NCBI GenBank assembly: GCA_964416435.1
Contig: CAYQEG010000008.1
Location: 7,120-71,119, forward strand
Direction of reading: 5' to 3'
Length of the DNA stretch: 64,000 nucleotides
Origin: an uncultured Rickettsiales bacterium
Lineage (GTDB): Bacteria > Myxococcota_A > UBA796 > UBA9615
In this document: positions 2,916 to 26,623 of the stretch, one piece after another
How the letters are laid out: each line of letters starts with the position of its first letter
How positions within the stretch are numbered: position 1 is the first letter of the stretch
Position numbers and translations under genes: made by a program
Notes under the pieces: model-generated
What the model was told of the DNA's origin: nothing
Databases searched by the model: none
What the model saw: the letters and a program-made list of their open reading frames with translations, nothing else

Positions 2916-5816
2916 CTACTGGCAGCGGCCCCCGGAGAGCCCGTAGAGCTTGCTCAGTTCGGGGGCCTTGGCCTGGAAGCCGAGGTCGTCGACGAACACC
3001 GTGATGGCGTAGCAGCCCGCGGCGCGGCCCTTGAACTTCGCGCCGATCGTGTACTTCTGGACCACGCCCTTGGACGGCAGCCCATCGCTGCCCTCGTAGA
3101 CGAACTGCAGCAGGCTGTCCCCCTTGACCGTCGCCGCGGACCAGCGGCCGGTGGCGCCTCCGTCAGCGCACTCGCCCTTGTCGCCCTTGGCCGGATCGAA
3201 CGTCGGGCGCATCGGCGCGTCACCGACCCGGGCGCGACCCTCGAGCTTGGCGCCCTCGGGGTTGGCGATCATCACGCAGATCTTGTGCTCGGTGCTGACC
3301 GAGGCCGCGACGGTGCCGGTCAGGCTGACCGCCACGACGAGCTTGCTCCCGGTGGGCGGCTGGACCTCGACGTAGACCCGGTCGCCGGACGCCTGGGCCT
3401 GCAGCGCCTCGACCACCGCCGGCTCGCGCATGAGGCTCGTCACGTGGCGGGTCAGGTCCGCGGTCACCCCGGCGTCGATCGGCAGCGTCGCGACGATGGC
3501 GCCGCGGCGGCTCTGCCGGAACCGGAGGGTCCAGGTGCCGTCGGTGCTGCTCCCGCCGGAGATCTCCAGGGGGTTGGCGAACGCGTTCCGACCGGTGTCG
3601 AACGTCGCCTGTTCCACCACCTTGCCCGAGTGCCAGCGCCAACTGCCGGCCGCCGGCGGGCTGGTCGTCCCCCCGCGATCGGGCGTCGGCTCCCCACCCG
3701 GCGCGAGGTTCTCGGGCTCCTCCTCCAGGGGCGTCGGGGCCACGATCCGCAGCGACTCCGAGCGGCGCAGGAAGCTCAGCTCGTCGTCGATGAACAGCTC
3801 CGCTCCCTGCGGCAGGATGATGATGTCCGCGTCGACGACCTCACCGGGGGCTCCCCACAGCCGGTCCCAGTTCCCGCCCTGACGCTGCACTGAGAAGGTG
3901 TACACCCCGTCGCCGCCCGAGCTGCGGTCGAGCCGCTGGCGCTTCAGCCCCTCCTCCGCGATGAGCCACACCTCGATCGGCTGGATGGTCGACTCGGCGT
4001 AGGCGTCCCTCTTCTGGAGCCGCAGGAGCGCCGCGGACTCCGACTCGGCGTCGGAGAACGGGACGCAGGCGATGCCCGGGTTCCAGCCCGCGCCGCAGCC
4101 GGTGAACGTGTAGGCGTAGGGCTCGCCCAGCGCGAGCACGTCGGCCCCCGGGCCGCCGTCCCCGCCCGACTGGGTGGGGTCAGCGTCCTGGCGCGCCTGG
4201 AGCATGTTGAGCACAGCCAACCCCGCCACCAGCGCGGCGAGGGCGGCGAGCAGGAGGCCGACCAGCACGAGGCCCCGGCGGTCGCTGGCGGGAGCCTCCT
4301 CGTCTTCCTCTTCCCCCTCCTCGGCCATCGCGCCCCAGTCGATTCCGGATCCGGTCCCCTCGGGCGCCGGCGCCGACGCCCGGGCCGGGGCCGGCATCGG
4401 CTCCTCGTCGTCGAACGTCTGGGCGAGCTCCTTCATGCGCGCCGACTGGGCCGACGTGCCGATCTGGGAGGGCGGCACGGGGCTCGGAGGCAGCAAGCAG
4501 GGCTCGCGCTCGACGGTGAACACCGGCTCCGCGATCGGTTCCCAGCGGTCGTTGGGGCGCAGCGACGGCGGGGCGATCGCCTGGAGCGACATGAGCGGCA
4601 CCGGCCGGCTCATCTTGTTCTGGGCGAACACCTGGAACAGCAGCGTGTCCTCTTCGATGCCCGGGTAGAGCACCAGCCCGACCTGGAACGGCACCTCGTC
4701 GAGGTCGTACCCGACCTCCCCGAGGAACAGCGCGATGCGGATGTTGTGCTCGACCGGGTCGTAGGTGTCCCCCTCGCTGAACCGGTGGGGGGAGACGATC
4801 CGGACGACCCCCAGGATCTTCTGCTCCCCGGTGGCGGGGAACGTGGCGGCCATGAAGCGCAGCGCGCCGACCAGGTCCTGGCGCTCCTTGTCGGGGTCTT
4901 CGCCCAGGTGGCCCAGGAACCGGACGCGCTTGATCGTGACGTGGTTGCCGGTCTTGGCGCCGAGCAGGACGCCGATCCGGTCCTGGTGCGTCTCGACGAC
5001 CGCGCTGGCCATACCTTCGAGGATGGAGGCGACCGGCCCCTCGGCGCGGTCCTGCCCCAACGTCAGCCAGTCCGGCGCCTCCTTGCGGACCATGCCGACC
5101 TGGTGCAGGACCGGCGTGTCGTCCTGGGCGTCGTCGTCGTCGCCGTCCCCTTCACCCTCCTCGACCCCCTCAGCCTCTACGACTTGAAACTTCCAGGGGA
5201 GCGCCGCCGTCACCTCCCTCCGGCTCTTGGCTCCGAAGAGGTGCAGCCCCGGGAGCAGCGGCGTACCCCCGCCCCGGTTGACGAAGTAGCCGACGGACGT
5301 GTCCGCAGTGCCCAGCTTGGGCGCGAGCACCAGGGCGAACTGGTAGGGCCGGTGGAAGTCGCGGTGGGTACGGAGGTCGTACCGGGACAGGAACACCGAC
5401 ATGTTGGGGTGGGTGTGGTACCAGCCCAGGAGCAGCAGCTCCTCTCCTGCTTCCTTGGAGAGGTTCTCCATCTGGTCGATGAGGTCGTCCCAGACGGAGT
5501 ACGTGAACTTGAAGTGCACCGGCGAGCTGTCTTCGTCGCGGGCGACCGCGATGTGGCTCACCTTGATGAGCGAGTTGTCCTCGCTGGTGGTGCCCAGGAG
5601 GATCCCGGCGACCTCCTTGTCGATCTGGATCGAGCGCTGGGACTCGAACTGGAGCCGGCGCGCGACCTCCCAATCGAGGTAGAGCGTGGGCATCTCCGCG
5701 TCGATGTTCTCTTCCGCGACAGCCCCGACATACAGCGTTTTCGCAGGCACGGCGAACCGGACCGACGAGTCGCCGGTCTCCTCTTCCATGAAGATCGGTT
5801 CATCCACCGAGGTCAT
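2916..5816 (-). CDS. membrane protein with N-terminal tandem MPN+/MPN- (JAMM metalloprotease) domains and large C-terminal extracytoplasmic Cys-containing domain
   Basis: Translation from MTSVDEPIFMEEE contains the JAMM motif E...HTHPNMSVFLSRYD (HxHx7Sx2D). A second MPN-like domain without HxH follows. Then one TM segment (GLVLVGLLLAALAALVAGLAVLNML) and about 500 aa of Cys-containing domain. The ORF-track N-terminal extension to 7838 is antisense to the FHA-SLT gene and was rejected. Start ATG at 5816. Confidence 0.8.
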   Translation of the reverse strand: MTSVDEPIFMEEETGDSSVRFAVPAKTLYVGAVAEENIDAEMPTLYLDWEVARRLQFESQRSIQIDKEVAGILLGTTSEDNSLIKVSHIAVARDEDSSPVHFKFTYSVWDDLIDQMENLSKEAGEELLLLGWYHTHPNMSVFLSRYDLRTHRDFHRPYQFALVLAPKLGTADTSVGYFVNRGGGTPLLPGLHLFGAKSRREVTAALPWKFQVVEAEGVEEGEGDGDDDDAQDDTPVLHQVGMVRKEAPDWLTLGQDRAEGPVASILEGMASAVVETHQDRIGVLLGAKTGNHVTIKRVRFLGHLGEDPDKERQDLVGALRFMAATFPATGEQKILGVVRIVSPHRFSEGDTYDPVEHNIRIALFLGEVGYDLDEVPFQVGLVLYPGIEEDTLLFQVFAQNKMSRPVPLMSLQAIAPPSLRPNDRWEPIAEPVFTVEREPCLLPPSPVPPSQIGTSAQSARMKELAQTFDDEEPMPAPARASAPAPEGTGSGIDWGAMAEEGEEEDEEAPASDRRGLVLVGLLLAALAALVAGLAVLNMLQARQDADPTQSGGDGGPGADVLALGEPYAYTFTGCGAGWNPGIACVPFSDAESESAALLRLQKRDAYAESTIQPIEVWLIAEEGLKRQRLDRSSGGDGVYTFSVQRQGGNWDRLWGAPGEVVDADIIILPQGAELFIDDELSFLRRSESLRIVAPTPLEEEPENLAPGGEPTPDRGGTTSPPAAGSWRWHSGKVVEQATFDTGRNAFANPLEISGGSSTDGTWTLRFRQSRRGAIVATLPIDAGVTADLTRHVTSLMREPAVVEALQAQASGDRVYVEVQPPTGSKLVVAVSLTGTVAASVSTEHKICVMIANPEGAKLEGRARVGDAPMRPTFDPAKGDKGECADGGATGRWSAATVKGDSLLQFVYEGSDGLPSKGVVQKYTIGAKFKGRAAGCYAITVFVDDLGFQAKAPELSKLYGLSGGRCQ

Positions 5817-15650: not shown

Positions 15651-16324
15651 GGGGCCAGTCCTTCCAGGCGATCGGGGTCGAGCACGGGGTCGTGCTCGCG
15701 CAGCCGCCGGCGCATCAGCTCGGCGACGGTCTGCTCCATCGCGTCGGGGTCCATCGCGTCGGCCGCCTCGCCCAGATCTGCGAGCACGGCGTCTCGCAGT
15801 GCGGACCGCTCGGCAACGGACAGCGCCCCGGCGCGATCGTCGTAGTAGCACCGGGAGGCCGCCAACAACAGGCAGAACGCCTCGTCTTCGTCGACCGACT
15901 CGGCCGCATCCTGCAGCGTCTGCCTCGCCCGCTCCAGGGCAGCGGCGCGGGCGCCCGTCGCCCCCTCCTGCGCGCCGAGCACGGAGGCGACGGCGAGGGC
16001 CAGCAGCCCCACCTCGGCCGGCGCCGGCTCGGTCGGCGACTCGCGGCTCCCCACCCCCCGCAGCCGCGCCCGCTCACCGGCCTTGGCGACGGCCGCCTTC
16101 ATCGACGACAGCGGCAGCCCCCGCGGCGGGTTCTTGCGCTTCTTGAGCTGCTCCCCCTTGCGCCGGAGCTCGGCGAGCACGGCGCCGAGGGGGTACCCGG
16201 CGTCGAACCACCGCTCGATCCAGTGCTGGTCCATGGGCGACAGGATGTGCCCCTCGTCCCGCAGATAGAGCACCAGCTCGGCGATCGCCGAGGCGTAGCG
16301 GTCGAGTCCGTCCAGCGCATCCAT
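15647..16324 (-). CDS. hypothetical protein translationally coupled to the DnaC/DnaI-like gene (possible loader partner)
   Basis: 225 aa. Its stop is fused to the downstream start as GTGA. High GC3. No clear motif. A DnaD/DnaB-like role is a guess from context only. Confidence 0.5.
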   Translation of the reverse strand: MDALDGLDRYASAIAELVLYLRDEGHILSPMDQHWIERWFDAGYPLGAVLAELRRKGEQLKKRKNPPRGLPLSSMKAAVAKAGERARLRGVGSRESPTEPAPAEVGLLALAVASVLGAQEGATGARAAALERARQTLQDAAESVDEDEAFCLLLAASRCYYDDRAGALSVAERSALRDAVLADLGEAADAMDPDAMEQTVAELMRRRLREHDPVLDPDRLEGLAP

Positions 16325-16449
16325 GGAGCCGCGGACCCTAGCAAGCCCGGACCACGAATTGCCCCCCCTTCGCCCCTCCGTTAGAGTCCCGCAATTGCGC
16401 GCCTCCGCGTTTCCGCGTCTTCGCGCCCCCTTCGTCTCCCGGAGACCGA

Positions 16450-17503: not shown

Positions 17504-18109
17504 CTACTCCATCTCGAAGGCCATGCCTCCGTCGTCGTAGTAGTACTTCCGGAACGAGTCGATCTCGTCGGGGTGGTTGTACGCCCAGCCGGCCGCGTCC
17601 GGGTTCAGGTAGTCGCCGATCTCGACCCGACGGTAGAAGTCGTCGGGGTTCTCGTGGATGTCCTGCCAGGAGAGCACGCCCAGGAGCATGTCGGCGATGT
17701 CCGCGAGGTGCACCTCGAGCGTGTAGGTGCTGTCGTTGACGTAGCAGACGAACCCGTCCTTGGGGCTGATGTTGGGGTGCCAGACGTCGGAGACCGCGTA
17801 GATCTCGGGCTTGACCACCGGGTACGCCTCGGACAGGTAGATGTCGAAGCTGACCGTGTCCTTGATCGGGAAGTGGGCCAGCGGGAAGCCCTTGAGCTGG
17901 AACTTGCCCGAGGGGCGGCCCAGCGTCGGCTTGGTGAAGGTGTAGCGGTACTTGTACGGCAGGGCCTCTTCGCCCCACGTGAAGTCGAGTGGCTCCACCG
18001 CCACCACGGACTGCTCCACCATGAAGTTCTGCAGGATGTCCCACTCCGTCTGGAGCCGGCCCATCACGAACTTCGCGTCGCCCGACGGCTTGGTCTTCCC
18101 TCCGGCCAT
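17504..18109 (-). CDS. UBC-fold E2-like ubiquitin-conjugating enzyme homolog
   Basis: N-terminal helix RLQTEWDILQ, then canonical E2 active site VWHPNISPKDGFVCY (HPN + catalytic Cys) in UBC-like spacing. Last gene of the baseplate-E1 operon. Confidence 0.8.
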   Translation of the reverse strand: MAGGKTKPSGDAKFVMGRLQTEWDILQNFMVEQSVVAVEPLDFTWGEEALPYKYRYTFTKPTLGRPSGKFQLKGFPLAHFPIKDTVSFDIYLSEAYPVVKPEIYAVSDVWHPNISPKDGFVCYVNDSTYTLEVHLADIADMLLGVLSWQDIHENPDDFYRRVEIGDYLNPDAAGWAYNHPDEIDSFRKYYYDDGGMAFEME

Positions 18110-18128
18110 GACCTGTCTCCTGGTCCCG

Positions 18129-18422
18129 CTAGGCGGGGATGTGCTCCATCACGAGGCGGATCTCGTCGCCCTCTTCCACCCCGGCGTCGCCGAGCGACTC
18201 GTTGGGCTGGAGGATGTAGTGCTTGCGACCGCCGCTGCGACGATCGGGCACGGAGATCTTGAACGAGCGGGGATTCCCCTGCTCGTCGGTCATGTTCATC
18301 TTCAGGTTGCGAGCCAGAAACGGCGCCAGCTTGCTCGCAGGCACGTCGCTGCTGATCTTGACCGTTCGATTCGTTCCGCCGGTGGGCTCCTTGAGCCGCA
18401 CCTTCACCACATTGTCGCTCAT
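18129..18422 (-). CDS. small beta-grasp (ubiquitin-like) protein lacking C-terminal Gly-Gly
   Basis: 97 aa. VKVRLKEPTGG..RTVKISSDV..ASKLAPFLARNL..SFKISV..EGDEIRLV fits a beta-grasp pattern. Ends ..MEHIPA. Sits between the membrane zinc-ribbon gene and the E2. Confidence 0.55.
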   Translation of the reverse strand: MSDNVVKVRLKEPTGGTNRTVKISSDVPASKLAPFLARNLKMNMTDEQGNPRSFKISVPDRRSGGRKHYILQPNESLGDAGVEEGDEIRLVMEHIPA

Positions 18423-18541
18423 CCTGATCCTCCGCCGCCGCCAGAGGCCCTCTTGTCCAGAGGGAAGCAGGCCGCGGGATCGCCCGATAGGGCGCTGATC
18501 CTATACCACACAGCCGGCTCGTCGGCCCCTGACCACCGCCG

Positions 18542-19216
18542 CTAGCGCCGTCCCATTCCCTTGAGATCACGCTCCCGAAGCTGCTGGTAGCAGCGCCGGC
18601 AGCGCCCATCGAGCAGGTGCACGTAGTCCTTGAGATAGACCGCGTGACACACCGAAGTGATGTTCAGCCGGTTGTGGCAGACCACGTACTGGTCGTGCTC
18701 TCGGTTGACGACCTGGTTGGTCAGCAGACAGACCAGGTCCTCCGGCTCCGTGGAGTAGTCGATGTCCTCCTCTTCGGACTCCTGCAGGTCCTCGTCCTCG
18801 TCGATGTCTTCCTGCTCGGTCTGCACGTAGTGCTTCAGGCTCAGCGCGCCGAGCAGGGCGCCGAACACGCCGCCCACCAGGCCCAGCGCGAGCGGCAGCA
18901 CGTCCAGCTTGAAGTCACCCTCCCCCGGCACCGTCACCATGCCGGTGACCGTAGCGAGCCCGAACATCACCGCGAACACGACCGTGCCGATCGCGAAGGT
19001 CAGGAACATCCCGCCCATCTGGCGGCCCAGCAGCATCCGCACCGACGCCGACGACAGCGCGCCGATCGCCAGCGGGGGCGCCAGCGCCAGCCCGATCCAG
19101 GGGGTCCCGTCCCGGTACTGCACCACGCCCCAGGCGATGGTGAACAGCACGAGCACGAACAACGTGGGCAGGACGTCGCCGATGCTGCCCATGCCCTCTT
19201 CGTCGGACTTAGCCAC
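18542..19216 (-). CDS. 4-TM membrane protein with acidic linker and C-terminal Cys/His zinc-ribbon-like domain
   Basis: Four hydrophobic helices. DEDEDLQESEEEDIDYS linker. C-terminal C..CHNR..CH..C..C cluster. Overlaps the E1 gene stop by 8 nt. Confidence 0.6.
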   Translation of the reverse strand: MAKSDEEGMGSIGDVLPTLFVLVLFTIAWGVVQYRDGTPWIGLALAPPLAIGALSSASVRMLLGRQMGGMFLTFAIGTVVFAVMFGLATVTGMVTVPGEGDFKLDVLPLALGLVGGVFGALLGALSLKHYVQTEQEDIDEDEDLQESEEEDIDYSTEPEDLVCLLTNQVVNREHDQYVVCHNRLNITSVCHAVYLKDYVHLLDGRCRRCYQQLRERDLKGMGRR

Positions 19217-20564
19217 CCATCACCTCTGCTTCATCGCCCGTCAGCTCGACCGCGACGCGCCCCTTGCCCCCGTACAGCAGGAAGATCTGCAGCTTCGGGA
19301 AGCCCAGTTCGCTCAACGGCCGGTCGATCAGCTTCTTGTCGAACACCCGCAGCGCCCGCTTGTAGTCGGGACGCGCTTCATTGTCGCAGTTGCGACAGGA
19401 GAGGTCCAAGTCGCGGGACCGCTGAGGCTTGAAGTACTCCTCGCGGTGGCCGCACTGGTGGCAGTACAGCTCCGTCACCAGGTCGTAGCCGATGCGCAGC
19501 GACACCTTGTTGACGTCGACCTCGAGCAGCTCGGCGCCTTTCTCGAGCAGCTGGCGCAGCGTGGTGCCGTCCGCCGTGAACTCCGGGACCTCCGCCACCT
19601 CGCCCCAGTGGTCGTGCCCCTCGCAGCCGTCGGTCCGGTTGCGGACCTGGGCCTCGAGGTAGGGCGAGCCGCCGCCGAAGTAGTACTGCACGCCGTGGGG
19701 CATCTCGAGCTGCGCGGGGGGCTCGTCCATGTGGACGTCGTGCAGCAGCTTGAGCGCCTCCTGGGCCATCATCGCGCCGCTCATCGCCGCCGCCAGCGGC
19801 GACGTCGGCTGACGCTGCATCTCGCGGATCGCCTCCGCGAGCGGAGCGCAGGACGGCGCGTACGGCAGGTGCTGCTGGTAGCGCATCGCCGCGTCCATCG
19901 TGCACTCGAAGCAGGCGCCCCCCGGCGGATCCCAGCAGGTCACGCGCCAGCTCAGCTCGCCGATGCCGGCGTCCAGCCAGGGCTTGCCCAGCGCCGCCGC
20001 GATCCGGTTGAAGCCGACCCGGGCGTCGATGCTGTCGACAACGCTGCAGAGCACGTCCATGCGCCGGAACACGCCCATGCCGATCTCGAACCGCACGTCC
20101 GCCGACATCGGACGCAGGTCCAGGTCGGGATCCATGTCCGCGAGCCGCTCCGCCGCCACCTCGACCTTCGCGCGGCCGATGTCCCGCGGGCGGAACAGGA
20201 CCGACTTGGCGAGGTTGCTGCGGTCGATGTCGTCGAAGTCGGCGAACCACAGGTGGCCCACGCCGAGCAGCGTCAGGTTCTTGAGCACCTCGTTGCCGAG
20301 GGCGCCCGCGCCGGCGCAGAAGACCCGCCCGTTGCGCACGATGTCCTCGCGGAAGTGCGCCATCAGCTTGTAGATCGCGAACCGGTCGGAGCTGTCGTAC
20401 TCCATGCGGCGACGCTGACGTTCGCCGAACGTCATGTCGGCGACGCCGTCCTCGTCCACCGACAGGTCGGCGAGGGGGTCGTCCTCGTCGGGGAGCTCGT
20501 TGCCGTCCTCGTCGTACGCGACGATGAAGACCTCGACCTCCTCTTCGTTCTCGGGCGTGCTCAC
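19209..20564 (-). CDS. E1-like (ThiF/MoeB/HesA family) adenylating enzyme with C-terminal zinc ribbon and Gly-Gly terminus
   Basis: Rossmann motif VFCAGAGALGNEVLKNL, then ..FADFDDIDRSNLAKS. CFEC and CHQC..CRNC Cys pairs. Final residues ..LTGDEAEVMGG. Confidence 0.85.
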   Translation of the reverse strand: MSTPENEEEVEVFIVAYDEDGNELPDEDDPLADLSVDEDGVADMTFGERQRRRMEYDSSDRFAIYKLMAHFREDIVRNGRVFCAGAGALGNEVLKNLTLLGVGHLWFADFDDIDRSNLAKSVLFRPRDIGRAKVEVAAERLADMDPDLDLRPMSADVRFEIGMGVFRRMDVLCSVVDSIDARVGFNRIAAALGKPWLDAGIGELSWRVTCWDPPGGACFECTMDAAMRYQQHLPYAPSCAPLAEAIREMQRQPTSPLAAAMSGAMMAQEALKLLHDVHMDEPPAQLEMPHGVQYYFGGGSPYLEAQVRNRTDGCEGHDHWGEVAEVPEFTADGTTLRQLLEKGAELLEVDVNKVSLRIGYDLVTELYCHQCGHREEYFKPQRSRDLDLSCRNCDNEARPDYKRALRVFDKKLIDRPLSELGFPKLQIFLLYGGKGRVAVELTGDEAEVMGG

Positions 20565-20573
20565 CGGTCTCTC

Positions 20574-21533
20574 CTACTCGGCGTCCAGCTCCTCGTAGTA
20601 GATGCCGCGGATGTTCTCACGGTCCTTGCCGGCGGCCTTGATGACGCCCTGGAGCGCCTTGCTCATCCAGTTGAGCCGCAGGTCGAACTTGTCCGACTTC
20701 GGGCGGTTCTCCTGGATCTTCTTGACCGCCTGCCAGCTGGTCTTGAAGTGCGGGAACAGCCCCTTGCGCACGCCCTCCTTGCGGAGCCCCACCAGGAAGC
20801 GCTGCTCGCGCTCCATCAGGCGGGTGAACATGTCGCAGAGCGCCTCCTCGCTGACGCCGGCGCTCAGCAGGTTCGCCTCGGTGCCGATCAGCGTCTGCAG
20901 GAACAGGTGCGCCCGCACGTCGGCGACCGGCTTCTGCTCGACCAGGTAGGCCTTCATCGTCAGCTCGATCGACGCGTCGACGTACTCGCTGAGCTGGCGG
21001 CGCAGGTTGCCCAGGTCCTCCGGCTCGGGACGACGGGCGAGCTGCACGTAGCGCAGGTCGACGCCGCCGGTGACCTTCTGGCCGTCGGCGACCCGGATCC
21101 GGCCGATCTCGACGCCCGCCCGGATCTCCTTGTCGTTGAAGGAGATCTCGAACGACTCGACCGTGCGGGTCTCCTGCCGTTCGGTGCTGTTGTAGGCCTG
21201 ACGCTTGCTGTCGGAGTCGTCGAACTCCTTGTACGTCAGGAAGATCATGTACTTGCCGGGGGTGTCCGGCACCGGCGCCGAGCGCGCCCCCTCGGGCACC
21301 ACCACGTCGTTGCCGTTGGGGTCGATGGCGTACCCCTCGGTCACCTCGATGCAGTCGCCCTGGGCCGTCTGCACGACGTCCGGCTTGAGCCCGAACACCA
21401 CCCCCGAGCCCGCGACGAACTGGTTGCTCAGCCGCCGCTTCCACAGGAAGTAGGACTGCTCGTCCCGCAGGTCGACGTCCGACAGGCACATCCCCTCGAA
21501 GGGGCGGAGCCGCTTGTTTTGAATCGCTTCCAT
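20574..21533 (-). CDS. hypothetical protein in baseplate operon (319 aa)
   Basis: Between the P2-I-like gene and the E1 gene with 9-16 nt gaps. No recognised motif. Possibly a wedge/fiber-attachment component by position. Confidence 0.5.
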   Translation of the reverse strand: MEAIQNKRLRPFEGMCLSDVDLRDEQSYFLWKRRLSNQFVAGSGVVFGLKPDVVQTAQGDCIEVTEGYAIDPNGNDVVVPEGARSAPVPDTPGKYMIFLTYKEFDDSDSKRQAYNSTERQETRTVESFEISFNDKEIRAGVEIGRIRVADGQKVTGGVDLRYVQLARRPEPEDLGNLRRQLSEYVDASIELTMKAYLVEQKPVADVRAHLFLQTLIGTEANLLSAGVSEEALCDMFTRLMEREQRFLVGLRKEGVRKGLFPHFKTSWQAVKKIQENRPKSDKFDLRLNWMSKALQGVIKAAGKDRENIRGIYYEELDAE

Positions 21534-21549
21534 CAGGTTCCCCGTTCGC

Positions 21550-22602
21550 TCAGGCCAGCAGCACGGCTCGGCCGAGCGCCGCGTTCGGGCTGAGCTGCGC
21601 CGGATCGCACAGCACCAGTCCGTTGTGAATCACTTCTTCGTCCTTGAAGCAGATCACGAAGTCCAGGTGGGCCGGACGCTCGTTCTGCGCGACGCGCGCT
21701 ACGCGCTCGAGCAGCTCGGCGAGCCGGTCCCGGTACCGGGAGACCAGGGCCTCCCGGTCGTCCAGGACGATCGTGAAGTACTCCTCCCGCGAGAAACGCG
21801 GAGAGGTCAGCAGGTGCTCCCCTGCGTGGGTCACGTACGGCAGCGATCCGAGGGCCTTCTCGTCCTCGTCGTCGATCTCGCCGTCCTCCGTCGGAGGCCG
21901 TGACAGCGCGCAGTTGCCCAGCTCCATCGGCTGGGGGCCACGCCGGAGCACGATGTGCGTGTCCAGCCCGGTCAGCGTCTTGATCATCTCCGAGAGGCCG
22001 CGGGTCGTGCCGCGCCACCGGAACAGCTCGGTCGCCCGGCGCAGGAAGATGCGTCGGCGGGTGACCGGGATGCGCTCGTCGAGCGTGAAGTCCAGCCACG
22101 ACGCGAGCCACGGCAGGAACTTCGGGTCCATCTTGACCGGGTCGACGATCGCCGACCGGTCGGCCACCGCCGAGTCGGTCCGGTGGGCGAGCGTCTGGAA
22201 CACCAGCAGGTAGCGCCGAAGGAACTCCGCCTGGCCGACGCCGGCGCCGCCCTCGCGCTGGATGCCGCGGCTGTACAGCTGCGGCAGGTACTGCCCGTAG
22301 CCGGACGTGGCGACCAGCAGGCTCACCCGGTCGCGGGCCTCCAGCTGGGCGTAGTGCACCGCCTGGCCTTCCCGCTCGAAGCGGACCTCCCCCGTCTCGG
22401 GGGCGAGCTTGAGGATCGTCGGCGCGGTCAGCCCGCGGGGCCGGATCTTGACCCCGATGACCCGCCCTTCGAGGAGCCGTCGGACCTCCGGCACGTACTC
22501 GACGTCGCACTGGTTGCCCAGCGCGTGACGCACGATCGCCACCCCGGCCTGCGCGGGCAGGCCTTCGCGGAGGATCCGCTCCAGGGTGGCGAGCTGCTGC
22601 AT
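21550..22602 (-). CDS. phage tail protein I-like (gp7-like baseplate wedge) protein, tentative
   Basis: Directly abuts the Baseplate_J gene (stop/start adjacent). Size and position match P2 gpI/Afp12-like genes. Assignment rests on synteny rather than strong motifs. Confidence 0.45.
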   Translation of the reverse strand: MQQLATLERILREGLPAQAGVAIVRHALGNQCDVEYVPEVRRLLEGRVIGVKIRPRGLTAPTILKLAPETGEVRFEREGQAVHYAQLEARDRVSLLVATSGYGQYLPQLYSRGIQREGGAGVGQAEFLRRYLLVFQTLAHRTDSAVADRSAIVDPVKMDPKFLPWLASWLDFTLDERIPVTRRRIFLRRATELFRWRGTTRGLSEMIKTLTGLDTHIVLRRGPQPMELGNCALSRPPTEDGEIDDEDEKALGSLPYVTHAGEHLLTSPRFSREEYFTIVLDDREALVSRYRDRLAELLERVARVAQNERPAHLDFVICFKDEEVIHNGLVLCDPAQLSPNAALGRAVLLA

Positions 22603-25600
22603 CTAGTCGCTGTCCAGGTCCACGGCGCACTCGGGCCGCTCGCGGGTTCCGGCGAGCACGAACAGCTGTCCGGGTCGACCGTGACGCGGGAGGTCTCGGA
22701 CGTAGCCGGCCGGTGCACCCGGAGGCGGCGCCCGCATCACGCGGCACTCTTCGACGTGCCGGATCTCCGGGATCTCCTTGAGGATGTGCTGCAGGTCCTG
22801 CGCCCGCGGCACCTCGCCGAAGGGCCAGCCGGCGCCGTCGACGCCGCCGGTGAACGGATCCAGGAACCGCGCGATCCAGGCCTCCGCCCGCTCACGCACG
22901 CCCGAGGGGTTCGTGCGCGGGATGAGCAGGCAGCGCATGTCGACCGTCACCGGCACGAGCTGCGCCATCTGCACCCGCACCTCGGTGTTGATCAGCGCCC
23001 GCTCCTGCACGTACTCCTGCACGACGCGGAGCAGGCCGATCTCCTCGGCGTCGGGGATCTCGCCCGTCTTCTGGTCGCGCTTGGGCAGCACCGTCAGCCG
23101 CACCACCCACGGGTCGTCGCCCGGGTCCTTGTAGGCGTGGCAGCGCGCCAGGGTGCCCGACGCCTCCTTGGCGATGACCTCGAAGTCCTCGGTGGTCACC
23201 GCGCGGGTGCGCCCGGTCAGGGCCTTGGGGGCCCGCTTGATCAGGTCGTCGATCGACTCGACGTCCCGCCCGCCGGTGGACGCGAACGGGTTGCTCACGC
23301 GGACCTGGGAGCCGTACGTCGGGCACACCGCGATGGTCGTCGCCGGCACGTTGCCGGCCGACCCGTCGGTGGTGAAGTAGTGACCCACGACCAGGTTGTG
23401 GGTGCCCGCCTTCGGGATCGCGCCGTGCACGCCGTCCCCGAACCGGACCACCCCGCGGACCGGGTCCACCGCGTAGACGCGGTCGTTGCGATCGGCGTCG
23501 CGCAGGTCGTCGTCCAGGCTGAACTCCCAGATCCTCTGGGAGTCACCCTCGCTGACGTCCACCTCGACGAACGACTCCTTGTGGAGGTCCTCCGGAAGCG
23601 ACGCCAGCAGGTCGGCCGACGGAACCACCGCCGGCTGGTGCAGCAGCTGCACCTCCTGGTTGGGGATGCCGTAGGCGCTGAACTTCTCCAGCTCGCGCCG
23701 CTGCAGGTTGCTCACCTCGGCCGCGTTGAGCAGGACGTGGGTCAGCCGCGGGTAGCGGATGGGTCCCCAGGTGCCGTCAGCCCGCTTGACCGCGTCCGGC
23801 AGCTTGCACCGCAGCCAGCGCACGTTGCCGCCGCGCCCCTCGCCTCGCGCCGGGATCACGACGCGCAGGAAGCCCGAGCCGCGGAAGTCGAACGTCGTCG
23901 GGAGCGACCGCAGCTGCAGCCAGCGCTCACCGTCCAGGTACTCCCAGGTCGCGTTGCGCTCCGCCCCCTTGAGCGGCTCACCGGTCATCCGGAAGTAGAT
24001 CGACACCTCCTCGCCCACCGGCAGCGGCCGGTCGACGCACAGGTAGATCGAGCGCCCGGAGCGGTTGGTCTCCACCGGAGCGATCCAGGGGAAGCGCGTC
24101 GCCTTCTTGGAGGTCAGCGAGCGGCTGACGAGCGGGCGGATCGAGGTGAACCGCGGGTTGTTGCGGTTCAGGTTGACCCCGAGGGCCTCGAAGTCGTGCA
24201 GGACGTGGCGGTACCAGTCCTCGCCCTCGACGACCTTCTTGCGGCGCTTGCCGCCGCCCCGGTGCTGGATCCGGATGCCGAAGATCTGGGGGTGGTAGTG
24301 CAGGTCGCGCTTCACGAAGATCCCGGTCGCGCCCGGGGTCTTCGGCTTCGCCCCCTTCTTGGTCTCCTCAGGCGGCGCCTCGCGCGTCTCACCGACGTTG
24401 ACCTCGACCTGGTCGGTCAGGTCGCAGTTCACCAGCACCAGCCGCAGCCAGTACGTCTCGGTGCCCTGGAGCGCCACCTGGGCGATCCCCTTGAACTGCT
24501 TGGCCGGCTGCAGGCTCATGCGCACCGTGAAGAACTGGTCCTCCTCGCTGAACGATGGCTGCATGTGGGAGAAGCAGAACTCGGTGAACGCCTTGCCCTC
24601 GTCGTCCTCGAGCTTGACGTCACGCCAGCGGGACTTGGCGCGGTACTGCAGCTTGAAGCTGTACCGGTCGAGGTCGTCCTCGAGTCCCCACTCGCCCGCG
24701 CGCGGGAACTTGTAGTTCTTGAAGAAGTAGCTGAACTCGACGCCGATGCGCTCGACCGTGTCCTCGAACACGTCGGCGCCCAGGTACAGCGCGTGGTTCT
24801 CCGCCGGGGCGATGCTGAACTCGCTGTTGGAGTACGGCTCGACCGGCGGGCTCTCCAGGCTGGTCCGCTCCAGCCGGTTGATGTCCGGCCCCTTGAGCAG
24901 GTCGACGCGGATCTGCCGCTCCAGCGACACCACCAGCTCGCCTTCGTCGGTCAGCGCGGCGATGTCGACGGCGCGGATGCGGGTCGTCTGGAAGCGGGCC
25001 GGGGTGGCGCAGTCGGCGGGCAGCGGCCCGTGGATCCAGGCGTCGAGGCCGCGGATCTGCAGGTTGCGCTCGGGCAGCTCGGCCCAGCGGCCGTCCTCTG
25101 TGAAGTAGAACCACTGCTGGCCCGGCACGTAGGTCGGCGCGACGCGCAGCGACAGGCGCGGGAAGCGGATGATGAACGCTTCCTTGCGGCCGGGGCGGAT
25201 CGGCTCGCTGAACCGGAACTCCATGGTGTTCGGCCCGGTGGCCGAGACCAGCAGCTCCATCGGGTGGCTGTCGCCGCGGCGGGGGCGGAAGCGGCCCTTG
25301 GGGTGCTCGCGGATCAGCTCCAGGTAGTACTTCTCGAACTCCAGCGCGCCGCGGACCCAGTACTTCGCCAGGTTGCGGCCGCCGTCGGTGACCAGCTCGG
25401 TCTCCTTGTCGTCCCAGTCGGCGATGGGGGCCTGCGGCTCCAGGCCCGCCGCGAGCAGGTTGCGGCTGTCCGGCCAGGCGACCCACTCGTCTCCCACCCG
25501 GTGCTCCCAGCGGAAGAACTTCTGCAGGTCGAACAGCTTCCCCTGCTCGTTCCCCTTGAGCTCCACGTGCAGCGTCACCTGGTCGTCGGTGTGCAGCCGC

Positions 25601-26226
25601 TCGATCAGGTTGTGACCCAGGTACAGGAACTGGTCGTAGATGTTGGCGGACAGGTTGTTCCGGTCGGGATCCGGCTCCAGCAGCGGCACGCCGGCCGTCT
25701 CCCCCGCCGCCTCGCCCAGCTCGTAGACCGGGGGATGCTCGGGGTCGTCGTCGATGATCCGCTCGATCGCCAGGACCTCGCGGTTGTCCTCGGACTCGCC
25801 CTCGATCTTCAGGCCGATGATCCGCTCCAGGCGGGGCCCGCAGACCGTCAGGTCACGCACGGTGATGAAGCGGACCTCGTCGACGTCCTCGGTCTGCTGG
25901 GTCGCCACCTCGGTCAGCTTGGGCACCCGCACCGGTCCCGAGGAGTCGTTGATCTTCTGGAACGAGACCAACGTCGAGCTGGGCAGGGCCGAGCCCTGGC
26001 GCTCGCCGATGAAGTTGAGGAAGTGGATGTAGGTCGCGTCGGGGACGCGGTTGAGCCGGTAGATGACCATCTCGGTCATCCACGCGAACAGCTGGACCAG
26101 GGTGATGCCCGGGTCTGAGTCGTTGAAGTTGGTCCACTCGGGGCAGTAGACCGGGATCAGCTGCTTGGCGCGTTCGACGATCTCGGCGTAGCTGAGGTCG
26201 TCCAGGTTGGGCGCATCAATCGGCAC
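22603..26226 (-). CDS. Baseplate_J (P2 gpJ / T4 gp6-like) baseplate wedge protein, extended 1207 aa
   Basis: N-terminal signature ..YAEIVERAKQLIPVYCPEWTNFNDSDPGITLVQLFAWMTEMVIYRLNRVPD is characteristic of the Baseplate_J family in P2-like phages, Afp and PVC-type contractile systems. Overlaps the gp25 gene by 11 nt. Confidence 0.85.
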   Translation of the reverse strand: MPIDAPNLDDLSYAEIVERAKQLIPVYCPEWTNFNDSDPGITLVQLFAWMTEMVIYRLNRVPDATYIHFLNFIGERQGSALPSSTLVSFQKINDSSGPVRVPKLTEVATQQTEDVDEVRFITVRDLTVCGPRLERIIGLKIEGESEDNREVLAIERIIDDDPEHPPVYELGEAAGETAGVPLLEPDPDRNNLSANIYDQFLYLGHNLIERLHTDDQVTLHVELKGNEQGKLFDLQKFFRWEHRVGDEWVAWPDSRNLLAAGLEPQAPIADWDDKETELVTDGGRNLAKYWVRGALEFEKYYLELIREHPKGRFRPRRGDSHPMELLVSATGPNTMEFRFSEPIRPGRKEAFIIRFPRLSLRVAPTYVPGQQWFYFTEDGRWAELPERNLQIRGLDAWIHGPLPADCATPARFQTTRIRAVDIAALTDEGELVVSLERQIRVDLLKGPDINRLERTSLESPPVEPYSNSEFSIAPAENHALYLGADVFEDTVERIGVEFSYFFKNYKFPRAGEWGLEDDLDRYSFKLQYRAKSRWRDVKLEDDEGKAFTEFCFSHMQPSFSEEDQFFTVRMSLQPAKQFKGIAQVALQGTETYWLRLVLVNCDLTDQVEVNVGETREAPPEETKKGAKPKTPGATGIFVKRDLHYHPQIFGIRIQHRGGGKRRKKVVEGEDWYRHVLHDFEALGVNLNRNNPRFTSIRPLVSRSLTSKKATRFPWIAPVETNRSGRSIYLCVDRPLPVGEEVSIYFRMTGEPLKGAERNATWEYLDGERWLQLRSLPTTFDFRGSGFLRVVIPARGEGRGGNVRWLRCKLPDAVKRADGTWGPIRYPRLTHVLLNAAEVSNLQRRELEKFSAYGIPNQEVQLLHQPAVVPSADLLASLPEDLHKESFVEVDVSEGDSQRIWEFSLDDDLRDADRNDRVYAVDPVRGVVRFGDGVHGAIPKAGTHNLVVGHYFTTDGSAGNVPATTIAVCPTYGSQVRVSNPFASTGGRDVESIDDLIKRAPKALTGRTRAVTTEDFEVIAKEASGTLARCHAYKDPGDDPWVVRLTVLPKRDQKTGEIPDAEEIGLLRVVQEYVQERALINTEVRVQMAQLVPVTVDMRCLLIPRTNPSGVRERAEAWIARFLDPFTGGVDGAGWPFGEVPRAQDLQHILKEIPEIRHVEECRVMRAPPPGAPAGYVRDLPRHGRPGQLFVLAGTRERPECAVDLDSD

Positions 26227-26623
26227 CGATGAACTCCTGCAGCTGGACCAGGTGGACCAGGTTCTGGTGGTTGTTCGACTTGCGGACCGTGTAGCCGATG
26301 TGGAGGCGAATCTGGTTCGGGTTGTCCCGATCCGGCCTGGCGACCACTTCGTCGACGTCGATCCGCGGCTCCCACTTGGCCAGCGCCGCCCGAACCATCG
26401 ATTCGGACTGGTGACGCGTGCCGGCGGAGTTGGTGGAGAAGATCAGGTCCTGCAACGGACAGCCGAACTCGGGGAGCATCTGCCGCTCGCCCGGCTGGGT
26501 GTTGAGGATGATGTGGATGCACTCCGCGATGTTCCGCTCGTACTCGGACAGGTAGACACCACCCCCGTCGTCACGCGGACGAACAGGAAACGACCACCCT
26601 CGGCCGAGGTACTCGCGACTCAC
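26216..26623 (-). CDS. GPW/gp25-like baseplate wedge protein
   Basis: MSREYLGRGWSFPVRP..SEYERNIAECIHIILNTQPGERQMLPEFGCPLQDLIF is the gp25/GPW family signature. Confidence 0.85.
   Translation of the reverse strand: MSREYLGRGWSFPVRPRDDGGGVYLSEYERNIAECIHIILNTQPGERQMLPEFGCPLQDLIFSTNSAGTRHQSESMVRAALAKWEPRIDVDEVVARPDRDNPNQIRLHIGYTVRKSNNHQNLVHLVQLQEFIGAD

What the first reader, a model, noticed from the sequence alone, without database searches (positions are those of the whole stretch)
18129..18422. Operon Ubl lacks the canonical C-terminal Gly-Gly
The beta-grasp-like 97-aa protein between the membrane zinc-ribbon gene and the E2 ends in ..RLVMEHIPA. Its only GG is internal (RRSGGRK). It either needs proteolytic maturation (no JAB gene is in the operon; the only MPN/JAMM protein is 13 kb away at 2916..5816) or acts non-covalently.
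Basis: seen in the sequence. Interest (0 to 1): 0.55.

Follow-up and report, generated by a model that had tools for sequence, protein, structure and literature searches.

The report
Ubiquitin-like protein ending in alanine
A small, very strongly conserved ubiquitin-like protein sits in a bacterial E1–E2 gene cassette and ends in Pro-Ala exactly where its nearest relatives end in Ala-Gly, so it is probably made ready for attachment through a terminal alanine rather than needing to be cut.

Summary
The 97-aa ORF at 18129..18422 (-) is a real gene, folds as a beta-grasp, and ends ...RLVMEHIPA in all ~25 orthologues seen. One correction: it has two internal GG dipeptides (15-16 and 64-65), not one.

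The nearest relatives are Ubls from E1–Ubl–E2–JAB–RING operons, mostly in Chloroflexi. They end ...[VI]TAG* or are fused to the E2 at ...ITAG|x. A profile comparison (97% probability) puts both C-termini in register, so Ala97 occupies the place of the terminal Gly.

The gene therefore encodes an already mature Ubl with a Gly-to-Ala change. Its cassette (E1, membrane Cys/His protein, Ubl, E2) has lost the adjacent JAB peptidase: 0/7 loci versus 31/31 in the sisters. The E1 (ATP motif, Cys239 loop, C-terminal UBA3-like domain) and E2 (HPN…Cys122) remain intact. The Ubl is the most conserved gene locally (93-96% identity against 51-82%).

Bacterial Cap2 is known to conjugate C-terminal Gly or Ala. 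I favour direct conjugation through Ala97 (about 0.55) and give non-covalent use about 0.2. Targets are unknown. Verdict: a new variant of a known kind.

The parts
18129..18422 (-). Ubl gene. 97 aa, beta-grasp, YukD-type Pfam family, ends ...RLVMEHIPA.
   Evidence: ORF and RBS. Pfam YukD 27.4 bits. AF2 beta-grasp model and Foldseek hits to Ubls. 93-96% identical in orthologues. Lowest dN in the cassette.
18132..18149 (-). C-terminal tail MEHIPA (residues 92-97). Ala97 is in register with the terminal Gly of sister Ubls (PEVTAG / ADVTAG).
   Evidence: MAFFT column identity. hhalign 97.3%, Q6-91 = T4-82, leaving 6 residues on each side. Invariant in about 25 sequences. Residues 94-97 have pLDDT < 50.
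18228..18233 (-). Internal G64G65 (RRSGGRK), in the loop of a hairpin next to a 6-residue insertion. Not a maturation site.
   Evidence: Loop between strands 53-59 and 66-71. Aligns to the sisters' SGK/LGR. SGTGR in P0004.
18375..18380 (-). Second internal GG (G15G16), in the b1-b2 loop.
17504..18109 (-). E2 (UBC-like), 201 aa. HPN at 111-113 and catalytic Cys122 (nt 17744-17779).
   Evidence: Pfam UQ_con 25 bits, below the cut-off of 27. PDB alignment to the UBE2K active site. WHPN…GxVC invariant in the own clade and sisters. Coordinates.
18542..19216 (-). Membrane protein. Four hydrophobic segments (nt 18833-19195), an acidic linker, and a C-terminal Cys/His domain (nt 18545-18760) with 9 invariant C/H. 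Candidate membrane-anchored E3 or adaptor by position only.
   Evidence: Hydropathy. Orthologue alignments. Same slot and architecture as the TM-Prok-RING protein of sister type A operons. No profile, Pfam or PDB match.
19209..20564 (-). E1, 451 aa. ThiF adenylation domain (GAGALGN, nt 20295-20312), invariant Cys239 (nt 19848-19850) in a disordered crossover loop, Cys/His clusters, and a C-terminal domain at residues 323-451 (nt 19212-19598).
   Evidence: Pfam ThiF 1e-39. Invariant columns. AF2 pLDDT 86.6. Foldseek top hit is UBA3 over 440 columns. Best PDB sequence hits are UBA7/UBA1/SAE2/UBA3.
18423..18541 (-). 119-nt leader between the membrane-protein gene and the Ubl gene. Holds a conserved TGnTATA-like box and a small C-rich/G-rich hairpin. 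Possible internal promoter or 5' UTR element (weak).
   Evidence: Alignment of 8 loci. RNAalifold -5.2 kcal/mol with 5 covarying pairs. No consensus sigma-70 site in the simple scan. No Rfam hit.
20574..26623 (-). Upstream co-directional baseplate-wedge module: gp25 (26216-26623), Baseplate_J-like 1207 aa (22603-26226), Tail_P2_I-like (21550-22602), and an unknown 319-aa protein (20574-21533). It ends 9 nt before the E1 gene. The association is variable.
   Evidence: Pfam and PHROGs. Present upstream of E1 in the window, L001, L002, L004, L005 and the P0002 contig. Absent in L003 and L011.
2916..5816 (-). Remote JAB/MPN protein, 967 aa. JAB domain at residues 60-157 (nt 5346-5639) with an intact HTHPNMSVFLSRYD motif. 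Possible trans-acting isopeptidase, not part of the cassette.
   Evidence: Pfam JAB 1e-14. Syntenic in L003 and L005. phmmer E about 1e-17 to sister-operon JABs. Coordinates.

Best explanation
The gene encodes a ubiquitin-like modifier that is translated in its mature form, with Ala97 in the position that the terminal Gly holds in its closest relatives.

**Proposed mechanism**
1. The E1 (19209..20564) binds the flexible MEHIPA tail and adenylates the Ala97 carboxylate.
2. The E1 takes the Ubl onto Cys239 of its mobile crossover loop.
3. Its C-terminal domain recruits the E2, and the Ubl passes to E2 Cys122.
4. The Ubl is then transferred to an amine on a target. This probably happens at the inner membrane, with help from the four-helix membrane protein whose cytoplasmic Cys/His domain sits in the slot that a membrane-anchored RING E3 occupies in sister operons.

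Because the gene stops exactly at the conjugation residue and the Ubl is not fused to the E2, no JAB peptidase is needed for maturation, and the operon has none.

**What is shown**
- The beta-grasp fold.
- Homology to Gly-terminated, operon-linked Ubls, with the termini in register.
- Invariance of the tail.
- Intact E1 and E2 catalytic motifs.
- Absence of an adjacent JAB.

**What is inferred**
- Adenylation and thioester transfer of an Ala terminus, by analogy with Cap2/CD-NTase.
- The E3 or adaptor role of the membrane protein.
- The targets, which are unknown. The co-operonic baseplate proteins are only one candidate.
For: 1. **Homology and register.** The own-clade Ubl profile against 16 sister Ubls gives hhalign Prob 97.3%, E 1.6e-11. 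Residues 6-91 match 4-82 of 88, leaving MEHIPA against PEVTAG. MAFFT gives the same final column. phmmer against sister Ubls reaches E down to 2e-9.
2. **Sister termini.** 43 of 50 standalone sister Ubl ORFs end [VI][TV]AG*, and 3 more carry short tails after it. 29 of 30 Ubl-E2 fusions have ITAG+[A/G/S] at the junction (examples).
3. **JAB pattern.** A JAB lies within 3 kb downstream in 23/23 type A loci and 8/8 type B loci, but in 0/7 own-clade loci.
4. **Tail constraint.** The last 18 residues are identical in all 14 additional cluster members, and ...RLVMEHIPA* is identical in every orthologue. The stop codon differs (TAG vs TGA). The Ubl-E2 gap is 16-57 nt in all three frames, so there is no hidden fusion.
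5. **Intact enzymes.**
   - E1: GAGALGN, R125, K133, D177 and C239 are invariant across 118 sequences. The model has pLDDT 86.6 with a disordered C239 loop and a confident C-terminal domain. It resembles UBA3 over its full length.
   - E2: WHPN…C122 is invariant.
6. **Selection.** The Ubl is 93-96% identical where E1 is 73-78%, E2 73-82% and the membrane protein 51-61%. It has the lowest dN and dN/dS in the cassette.
7. **Precedent.** The bacterial E1-E2 Cap2 conjugates CD-NTases whose C-terminal residue is Gly or Ala. E. cloacae uses a natural Ala, and a G-to-A mutant still forms the thioester (PMC10097602).
8. **A second Ala case.** The related Ubl P0009 has Ala at the same aligned position, followed by 2 residues and an adjacent JAB.
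Against: - There are no biochemical data for this or the sister family.
- Every beta-grasp modifier shown to be conjugated so far ends in Gly after processing.
- In Cap2, G-to-A lowers transfer to targets.
- The penultimate Pro has no precedent that I know of.
- Loss of the terminal Gly together with loss of the JAB is also what a switch to non-covalent function would look like.
- The Pfam family it hits (YukD) is named after a non-conjugated protein.
- The membrane protein could not be linked to RING or any known E3.
- The E2's Pfam score is below the curated cut-off (25 vs 27).
Confidence: 0.55

Rival explanations
1. Non-covalent Ubl. The protein has lost its conjugatable Gly and works as a binding or assembly module, as YukD does in type VIIb secretion or Hub1 in splicing. 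It might bind the membrane protein or the baseplate proteins, while E1/E2 act on something else or serve as scaffolds.
For: - Pfam YukD match; YukD and Hub1 are among the structural hits.
- Terminal Gly and operon JAB were lost together.
- Strong conservation of the whole surface also fits a multi-partner binding module.
- YukD acts non-covalently in T7SSb assembly (PMC12637312, title and abstract listed).
Against: - The sister Ubls that hit the same Pfam model end in Gly and sit with E1/E2/JAB, so the Pfam name does not imply non-covalent use.
- The E1 ATP motif and Cys239, and the E2 HPN-Cys122, are invariant in the clade, which is unexpected if no substrate is activated.
- No other cassette protein offers a conserved Gly/Ala C-terminus.
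- The tail ends exactly at the conjugation position and is invariant rather than drifting in length.
Confidence: 0.22
2. Cryptic proteolytic maturation. The remote JAB (2916..5816) or another protease trims the protein to expose a different C-terminus, for example at an internal Gly.
For: - A catalytically intact JAB of the same Rpn11-like type as the sister-operon JABs is conserved in synteny 12-13 kb away in the window, L003 and L005.
- Related Ubls (P0008, P0130, P0009) and Caldiarchaeum pro-ubiquitin carry tails that JABs remove or are placed to remove.
Against: - No residues lie beyond the position homologous to the mature sister terminus.
- Both GGs are in loops inside the beta-grasp core, so cutting there would remove strands.
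- G64G65 is not invariant.
- Pro-peptides normally vary, whereas the last 18 residues here are invariant.
Confidence: 0.06
3. The Ubl is not the activated substrate. The E1 adenylates another C-terminus, for instance its own ...EVMGG tail in trans, and the Ubl is a regulator.
For: About half of the own-clade E1s end in ...EV[MF]xGG or ...RGG, and the window E1 ends VMGG. CBASS shows that non-Ubl proteins can be E1 substrates.
Against: - The E1 tail is not conserved as a terminus. Variants include EVMGVK, EVMGER, EVMRGQV, MFGDH and extensions of up to about 13 residues.
- Sister E1s end in unrelated residues.
- In the model the tail follows a helix at 442-449 of a folded domain.
Confidence: 0.05
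4. Sulfur-carrier role. The Ubl is thiocarboxylated by the E1 like ThiS/MoaD rather than conjugated to proteins.
For: The E1 belongs to the ThiF family, and ThiF and MoeB are among the structural matches.
Against: - An E2 with HPN-Cys is present and conserved.
- The best sequence matches are canonical UBA7/UBA1/SAE2/UBA3, not MoeB/ThiF.
- The E1 has no rhodanese domain, and no sulfur-metabolism genes lie in the cassette.
- Sulfur carriers also end in Gly-Gly.
Confidence: 0.04

Closest known systems
Bacterial E1-Ubl-E2-JAB-Prok-RING operons, mostly Chloroflexi MAGs. Predicted bioinformatically only. From memory these are the systems of Burroughs, Iyer & Aravind 2011, Mol Biosyst 7:2261; that paper could not be opened.
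   Same: - Homologous E1 (33-38% identity, 220-250 bits), Ubl (hhalign 97%) and E2 with the same WHPN…C site.
- Gene order E1 / membrane Cys-His protein / Ubl / E2 parallels sister type A: E1 / TM-RING / Ubl-E2 fusion.
   Different: - The Ubl ends Pro-Ala instead of Ala-Gly and carries a 6-residue hairpin insertion.
- The Ubl and E2 are separate genes.
- There is no second Ubl, no JAB in the operon, and no GntR domain on the E1.
- The membrane protein's Cys/His domain does not match Prok-RING_1.
- The E1 crossover-loop region carries clade-specific changes, PYAPSCAPLAEAIREMQRQ against RY--SCPLLARANILLGK.
Type II CBASS Cap2 (E2-E1 fusion) / Cap3 (JAB) conjugation of CD-NTases
   Same: A bacterial E1-E2 cascade in which the activated C-terminal residue is Gly or Ala, with a natural Ala in E. 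cloacae (PMC10097602). The E1 shows only weak similarity to PADLOC Cap2-type models.
   Different: The CBASS substrate is a nucleotidyltransferase, not a beta-grasp protein. Its E1 and E2 are fused and a Cap3 JAB is present. Here there is no CD-NTase and no effector.
Archaeal (Caldiarchaeum / Asgard) E1/E2/small-RING/ubiquitin operon with Rpn11
   Same: A compact eukaryote-like cascade. Caldiarchaeum ubiquitin is among the top structural matches (6fno_D). In both, the JAB lies outside the operon proper.
   Different: The archaeal ubiquitin is a pro-protein with Gly-Gly plus a 9-residue tail that Rpn11 removes. The Ubl here has no tail and no Gly.
Bil (BilABCD) and Bub (6E/DUF6527) anti-phage ubiquitination-like operons
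   Same: Ubl + E1 + E2 in one bacterial operon. Type I Bub, like sister type A, makes a Ubl-E2 fusion that a JAB cuts after a Gly (PMC11601596).
   Different: - There are no PADLOC hits beyond a weak BilD/E1 match.
- The E2 has Cys, not the Bub serine.
- There is no DUF6527 (BubE) protease and no JAB.
- The Ubl is a single beta-grasp ending in Ala.
YukD (type VIIb secretion) and Hub1: Ubls without a C-terminal Gly that act non-covalently
   Same: Small beta-grasp proteins with no terminal Gly-Gly. The Pfam family is named after YukD, and both appear among the fold matches.
   Different: They are not encoded with an E1 and an E2. No T7SS genes lie here.

Membership tests
Conjugatable ubiquitin-like modifier (Ub/SUMO/NEDD8/SAMP/BilA type) | Beta-grasp fold | tested here: met
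   AF2 pLDDT 75.5 with bb-a-bb-b topology. All top Foldseek PDB hits are Ubl domains, prob 1.00, TM 0.45-0.60.
Conjugatable ubiquitin-like modifier (Ub/SUMO/NEDD8/SAMP/BilA type) | Flexible C-terminal tail ending (after processing) in Gly | tested here: not met
   Ends ...HIPA in all orthologues. The tail is flexible and in register with the sisters' terminal Gly, but the residue is Ala.
Conjugatable ubiquitin-like modifier (Ub/SUMO/NEDD8/SAMP/BilA type) | Encoded with a cognate E1 (ATP motif, catalytic Cys) and E2 (HPN-Cys) | tested here: met
   E1. E2. The cassette is conserved in 8 loci.
Conjugatable ubiquitin-like modifier (Ub/SUMO/NEDD8/SAMP/BilA type) | Forms E1/E2 thioesters and isopeptide conjugates | not testable with these tools
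   Needs biochemistry.
Pfam YukD (PF08817) | Score at or above the gathering threshold | tested here: met
   27.4 bits against a cut-off of 27.0, which is marginal. Several orthologues and sisters carry PF08817 in precomputed tables.
YukD sensu stricto (T7SSb assembly factor) | Encoded in an ESX/T7SS locus (EssC/FtsK ATPase, WXG100, YueB) | tested here: not met
   No such genes in the window regions scanned.
Sister E1-Ubl-E2-JAB-Prok-RING operons | Homologous E1, Ubl and E2 | tested here: met
Sister E1-Ubl-E2-JAB-Prok-RING operons | Ubl ends ...[VI]TAG, or is fused to the E2 at ITAG|x | tested here: not met
   IPA* here, against 43/50 standalone and 29/30 fused sister Ubls.
Sister E1-Ubl-E2-JAB-Prok-RING operons | JAB peptidase gene in the operon | tested here: not met
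   0/7 own-clade loci against 31/31 sister loci. The only JAB is a remote one at 2916..5816.
Sister E1-Ubl-E2-JAB-Prok-RING operons | Prok-RING_1 (PF14446) E3 | tested here: not met
   No Pfam hit even at E <= 10. hhalign against the sister RING alignment gives Prob 2.8%. No PDB hit. Only position and architecture agree.
Bub (6E/DUF6527) | DUF6527 BubE protease, E2 with catalytic Ser, E1 lacking a catalytic Cys | tested here: not met
   E2 has Cys122 and E1 has an invariant Cys239. None of the cassette proteins hit a DUF6527 model. Definitions from PMC11601596.
Bil / type II CBASS | Match to BilA-D or Cap2/Cap3/CD-NTase models | tested here: not met
   PADLOC gives only weak generic E1 matches (best 50 bits to an E1-E2 model, BilD 23.8 bits). 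The Ubl, E2 and membrane protein have no meaningful hits.

The most novel reading that the evidence does not exclude
This would be the first ubiquitin-fold modifier that is natively conjugated through a C-terminal alanine (…Pro-Ala). It would be made without a precursor and without a dedicated peptidase, so tagging would be effectively one-way. A eukaryote-like E1-E2 pair would carry it out at the membrane through a new type of Cys/His-domain partner. In most genomes of the clade the cassette is transcriptionally joined to an orphan phage-like baseplate-wedge module (gp25/J/I), raising the possibility that Ubl tagging controls assembly or turnover of a contractile-injection-type baseplate.
Probability: 0.15. 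Interest if true: 0.8.

Novelty: new variant of a known kind. Interest (0 to 1): 0.55.

Why it matters
Every beta-grasp modifier shown to be conjugated so far ends in Gly after processing. The only proven Ala-terminated substrates of a ubiquitin-type cascade are bacterial CD-NTases, which are not Ubls.

A natural, invariant Pro-Ala terminus on a true Ubl, paired with intact E1 and E2 enzymes and with loss of the JAB peptidase, would show three things:
- The Gly requirement is not intrinsic to the ubiquitin fold or to E1 chemistry.
- It would give a natural system for asking what the terminal residue does for E1, E2 and deubiquitinase specificity. From memory, Ub G76A is conjugated but poorly removed (Hodgins et al. 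1992).
- It would show one way a ubiquitin-like system can shed its protease: by placing the stop codon at the cleavage site.

The Ubl is also far more conserved than its own enzymes, which echoes ubiquitin itself.

If the protein instead turns out to act non-covalently, it documents a conjugation system caught in transition. Either result can be tested directly with four small proteins.

Tried and rejected
- **Internal GG as a cleavage site.** Rejected. There are two GGs, both in hairpin loops of the fold. G64G65 aligns to the sisters' single-Gly loop and is SGTG in one orthologue.
- **Mis-called start or end.** Rejected. The RBS, the conserved start, and identical ends with different stop codons all agree.
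- **Hidden Ubl-E2 fusion by readthrough or frameshift.** Rejected. Gaps are 16-57 nt in all three frames.
- **E1's own C-terminal GG as the substrate.** Unlikely, because it is not conserved as a terminus.
- **Membrane protein as a Prok-RING E3.** Not supported by Pfam at E <= 10, hhalign (2.8%) or a PDB profile search. Kept only as an analogy of position and architecture.
- **Known defence system (PADLOC).** No membership.
- **Phage origin of the Ubl, E2 or membrane protein (PHROGs).** No hits. Only the gp25 and J proteins match clearly; the Tail_P2_I-like protein is marginal (E 0.009).
- **Wider family hunt.**
  - The exhaustive HMM search with the own-clade profile found only 3 distant proteins.
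  - The word-indexed search with ours + P0008 + P0009 added a single protein.
  - PDB sequence searches with the Ubl, the 319-aa protein and the Cys/His domain found nothing.
- **Baseplate genes as obligatory partners.** Rejected. They are absent upstream of the E1 in L003 and L011.
- **Leader element.** No Rfam match, no consensus sigma-70 promoter or terminator, and only a weak conserved hairpin.
- **Excluded or unavailable.** P0006 looks frameshifted and was left out. The Burroughs 2011 paper (PMC5938088) could not be opened.
Full report
**1. What is there**

The window has 72% GC. On the minus strand, eight tightly packed genes run from 26623 to 17504:

| Gene | Coordinates | Note |
|---|---|---|
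| gp25-like | 26216-26623 | |
| Baseplate_J-like | 22603-26226 | 1207 aa |
| Tail_P2_I-like | 21550-22602 | |
| unknown protein | 20574-21533 | 319 aa |
| ThiF-family E1 | 19209-20564 | |
| membrane protein | 18542-19216 | 224 aa |
| Ubl (the ORF in question) | 18129-18422 | 97 aa |
| E2 | 17504-18109 | |

Gaps between genes are 0-19 nt, apart from 119 nt before the 97-aa gene. Upstream of gp25 lies a divergent PFOR/Rnf metabolic cluster.

The 97-aa ORF is a real gene:
- It has a GGAGGA ribosome-binding site and GC3 of 0.88.
- It lies in a 90%-identity cluster of 91 member sequences from many metagenomes.
- It has the lowest dN (0.05-0.08) and dN/dS (0.06-0.14) of the four cassette genes in all seven pairwise comparisons.

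**2. The observation**

The protein ends ...RLVMEHIPA. That ending is identical in:
- the seven orthologous loci recovered from MAGs and one metagenome contig (L011),
- P0001-P0005,
- 14 further cluster members, in which the last 18 residues are invariant.

The stop codon is TAG here and TGA in the other seven loci. The distance to the E2 start varies from 16 to 57 nt in all three frames, so no conserved readthrough or frameshift joins the two genes.

**3. Fold**

- Pfam places the protein in the YukD family at threshold, 27.4 against 27 bits.
- The AlphaFold2 model (pLDDT 75.5) has strands 5-10 and 19-24, helix 29-39, strands 53-59 and 66-71, a short helix at 77-80 and strand 87-94. The tail at 94-97 is disordered.
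- All leading Foldseek matches in the PDB are ubiquitin-like domains: TBCE Ubl, SUMO, Caldiarchaeum ubiquitin, Hub1 and YukD.
- Both GG dipeptides lie in hairpin loops inside this fold.

**4. Relatives**

The family is narrow. An exhaustive HMM search of 1.8 billion representatives found only the own clade plus three distant proteins.

The E1 was the better handle. Below the orthologues (69-84% identity) there is a gap, then a large sister family at about 35-38% identity, mostly from Chloroflexi MAGs.

Gene neighbourhoods and 79 metagenomic loci, analysed with iterated HMMs in the sandbox, show two sister architectures:
- **Type A (58 loci):** GntR-E1 / membrane-anchored Prok-RING protein / Ubl-E2 fusion / 88-aa Ubl / JAB.
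- **Type B (19 loci):** E1 / Ubl / E2 / JAB / JAB / RING / RING.

The sister Ubls also hit Pfam YukD.

**5. The key result**

- 43 of 50 standalone sister Ubl ORFs end exactly at [VI][TV]AG*, and three more have short tails after that motif.
- 29 of 30 Ubl-E2 fusions carry ITAG followed by A, G or S at the junction (examples).
- In a joint MAFFT alignment the window protein's ...HIPA* ends in the same column as ...VTAG*.
- A profile-profile comparison of the own-clade alignment with 16 sister Ubls gives 97.3% probability (E 1.6e-11). It aligns residues 6-91 with 4-82 of 88, leaving six residues on each side: MEHIPA against PEVTAG.

Ala97 is therefore the positional equivalent of the conjugation-site Gly, and Pro96 of the penultimate Ala. 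One orthologue reads SGTGR there.

Nothing is left to cleave, and the internal GG is not a processing site.

**6. The JAB question**

A JAB gene lies within 3 kb downstream of the Ubl/E2 genes in 23/23 type A and 8/8 type B loci that extend far enough, and in 0/7 own-clade loci.

In type A, a JAB is presumably needed to cut the Ubl-E2 fusion. This has been shown experimentally for the analogous BubAB fusion (PMC11601596). In Caldiarchaeum, Rpn11 removes a 9-residue pro-peptide (PMC5654768).

Three distant Ubls behave consistently:
- P0008 and P0130 end ...DMRAG plus four residues and are followed by a JAB.
- P0009 ends ...DMQAA plus RA and is followed by a 557-aa JAB. It is a second case with Ala at the aligned position.

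In the window clade the stop codon sits at the would-be cleavage site and the Ubl is not fused to the E2. Maturation therefore needs no peptidase.

It spans 2916..5816, is 967 aa, has its JAB domain at residues 60-157 and keeps an intact HTHPNMSVFLSRYD motif. It is syntenic in the three loci that reach far enough (window, L003, L005) and resembles sister-operon JABs (phmmer E about 1e-17). It could act in trans as an isopeptidase, but it is separated from the cassette by unrelated genes: an ABC transporter, PilZ, SLT and HmuY.

**7. Are the enzymes alive?**

*E1*
- GAGALGN, R125, K133, D177, C218-x-E-C221, C239 and the Cys/His clusters are invariant across 118 sequences.
- The AF2 model is confident (pLDDT 86.6). 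Residues 236-250, which hold Cys239, are disordered, as expected for a mobile catalytic-Cys crossover loop. The C-terminal domain (323-451) is well defined.
- Foldseek ranks UBA3 first, over 440 columns that include its C-terminal part, followed by ThiF, MccB and UBA5.
- By sequence the best PDB matches are UBA7, UBA1, SAE2 and UBA3, not MoeB or ThiF.

*E2*
- It aligns with UBE2K through YP..P…WHPNIS…G.xC.
- WHPN…Cys122 is invariant in the clade and in both sister types.

Neither enzyme shows the decay expected if conjugation had been abandoned. The crossover-loop region differs systematically from the sisters, with a two-residue insertion before Cys239 and altered flanks. That would fit co-adaptation to a changed tail, but this is inference only.

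**8. The membrane protein**

It has four hydrophobic segments, a strongly acidic linker and a 72-residue C-terminal domain with nine invariant Cys/His: C-x10-H-x5-CH-x8-CH-x8-H-x5-C-x2-C.

It occupies the slot between the E1 and the Ubl/E2 that, in type A operons, holds a multi-pass membrane protein with a C-terminal Prok-RING.

I could not show homology:
- no Pfam hit at E <= 10,
- hhalign probability of 2.8% against the sister RING domains,
- no PDB match.

Its role as an E3 or adaptor is an analogy of position and architecture, not a membership claim.

**9. Context**

The conserved unit is E1 / membrane protein / Ubl / E2, present in all eight orthologous loci.

The baseplate module (gp25, J, I, 319-aa protein) lies directly upstream in the window, L001, L002, L004, L005 and the P0002 contig. 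It is replaced by an ABC transporter in L003 and by a fatty-acid hydroxylase in L011. No sheath or tube genes are nearby. A functional link to the baseplate proteins is therefore possible but not required.

The Ubl is by far the most conserved gene of the neighbourhood:

| Protein | Identity to window (%) |
|---|---|
| Ubl | 93-96 |
| gp25 | 76-79 |
| J | 73-74 |
| I | 63-67 |
| E1 | 73-78 |
| E2 | 73-82 |
| membrane protein | 51-61 |

Nearly all Ubl variants fall into one 90% cluster, while the E1 orthologues listed span 32 such clusters.

**10. Mechanism and likelihoods**

A bacterial E1-E2, Cap2, is known to conjugate proteins whose C-terminal residue is Gly or Ala. E. cloacae uses a natural Ala, and a Gly-to-Ala mutant still forms the Cap2 thioester although transfer is reduced (PMC10097602). 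From memory, Ub G76A is activated and conjugated but poorly removed (Hodgins et al. 1992). The library confirms only that a G76A fusion is cleaved inefficiently (PMC9703124).

| Reading | Likelihood |
|---|---|
| Direct activation and conjugation through Ala97 | ~0.55 |
| Non-covalent use | ~0.22 |
| Cryptic processing | ~0.06 |
| Another E1 substrate, such as the E1's own EVMGG tail (not conserved as a terminus) | ~0.05 |
| Sulfur-carrier role | ~0.04 |

The non-covalent reading explains the joint loss of Gly and JAB, but not the intact enzymes or the fixed tail length. Targets remain unknown.

**11. Comparison and novelty**

The system works like, and descends from the same stock as, the E1-Ubl-E2-JAB-RING operons. 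It fails three of their defining features: the terminal Gly, the operon JAB and the Prok-RING.

It is not a Bil, Bub or CBASS member, and it is not YukD in the strict sense because there is no T7SS context.

I rate it a new variant of a known kind. Interest is moderate (0.55): a specialist would be curious rather than astonished, given the CBASS precedent. The question it poses, whether a true Ubl can be conjugated through Pro-Ala, can be tested directly with four small proteins.

Noticed in passing
window 18129-18422 versus 17504-26623; loci L001-L011: The Ubl is far more conserved than its own enzymes and neighbours: 93-96% identity against 51-82%. Nearly all Ubl variants share one 90% cluster of 91 members, while the E1 orthologues span 32 clusters. 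This is a ubiquitin-like pattern of extreme constraint.
   Followed up: yes
window 19209-19230 (E1 C-terminus); P0010-P0041: Own-clade E1s end in a semi-conserved ...ELTGDEAEV[MF]x[GR]G motif, often terminating in GG (VMGG here) but with variable tails of 0 to about 13 residues. Sister E1s end differently (...QFH, ...GWA, or R[IV]xLx[DE]).
   Followed up: partly
window 18423-18541 (-): The 119-nt leader before the Ubl gene carries a TGnTATA-like box conserved in 8 loci, about 75 nt upstream of the ATG, and a short C-rich/G-rich hairpin with a few compensatory changes. This hints at an internal promoter or 5' UTR element for Ubl+E2. There is no Rfam match and no consensus sigma-70 hit.
   Followed up: partly
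window 20574-26623 (-): An orphan baseplate-wedge module (gp25, a 1207-aa Baseplate_J-like protein, a Tail_P2_I-like protein and an unknown 319-aa protein) has no sheath, tube or spike genes nearby. It is joined to the E1 by a 9-nt gap. The whole module, including the 319-aa gene, is missing upstream of the E1 in L003 and L011.
   Followed up: partly
window 2916-5816 (-); L003 20716-21342; L005 21019-21342: A 967-aa protein has an N-terminal Rpn11-like JAB domain with an intact JAMM motif and about 800 residues with no Pfam match. It is syntenic in three genomes of the clade and resembles the JABs of the sister operons (E about 1e-17). The longest ORF on this strand runs on to 7838 and overlaps a + strand ORF (4746-7676) of similar codon statistics, so the gene model is uncertain.
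   Followed up: partly
window 14805-17466; L001-L011: Downstream of the E2, three genes keep their order in all loci that reach them, even where the upstream side differs: a convergent 338-aa protein (16450-17466, +), a 225-aa protein (15647-16324, -) and an IstB/DnaC-like AAA+ protein with an N-terminal Cys cluster (14805-15851, -). L011 has a PhoD phosphatase inserted directly after the E2.
   Followed up: no
L091 1300-5859; L094; L095: A third, rare operon type runs 160 aa / E1 / E2 / 161 aa / Ubl / 557-aa JAB / 474 aa. Its Ubls carry short tails after ...DM[RQ]A[GA]. One of them (P0009) has Ala at the predicted mature terminus.
   Followed up: partly
P0007 (857 aa): A large protein with two copies of a YukD-like Ubl domain flanking three near-identical helical repeats of about 105 aa. 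It matched the own-clade Ubl profile at E 1e-5.
   Followed up: no
L004 12516-13208; L005 (E2 genes): Two orthologous E2s carry an N-terminal Lys/Arg-rich stretch followed by a poly-Gly run (…KKKRRRKKPPE…GGGGGG…) that is absent from the window E2.
   Followed up: no
sister loci L009, L022 and others (type A): Type A sister E1s are fused to an N-terminal GntR winged-helix domain, suggesting that the E1 doubles as a transcription regulator. Neighbouring genes often include VWA and FHA-like membrane proteins.
   Followed up: no
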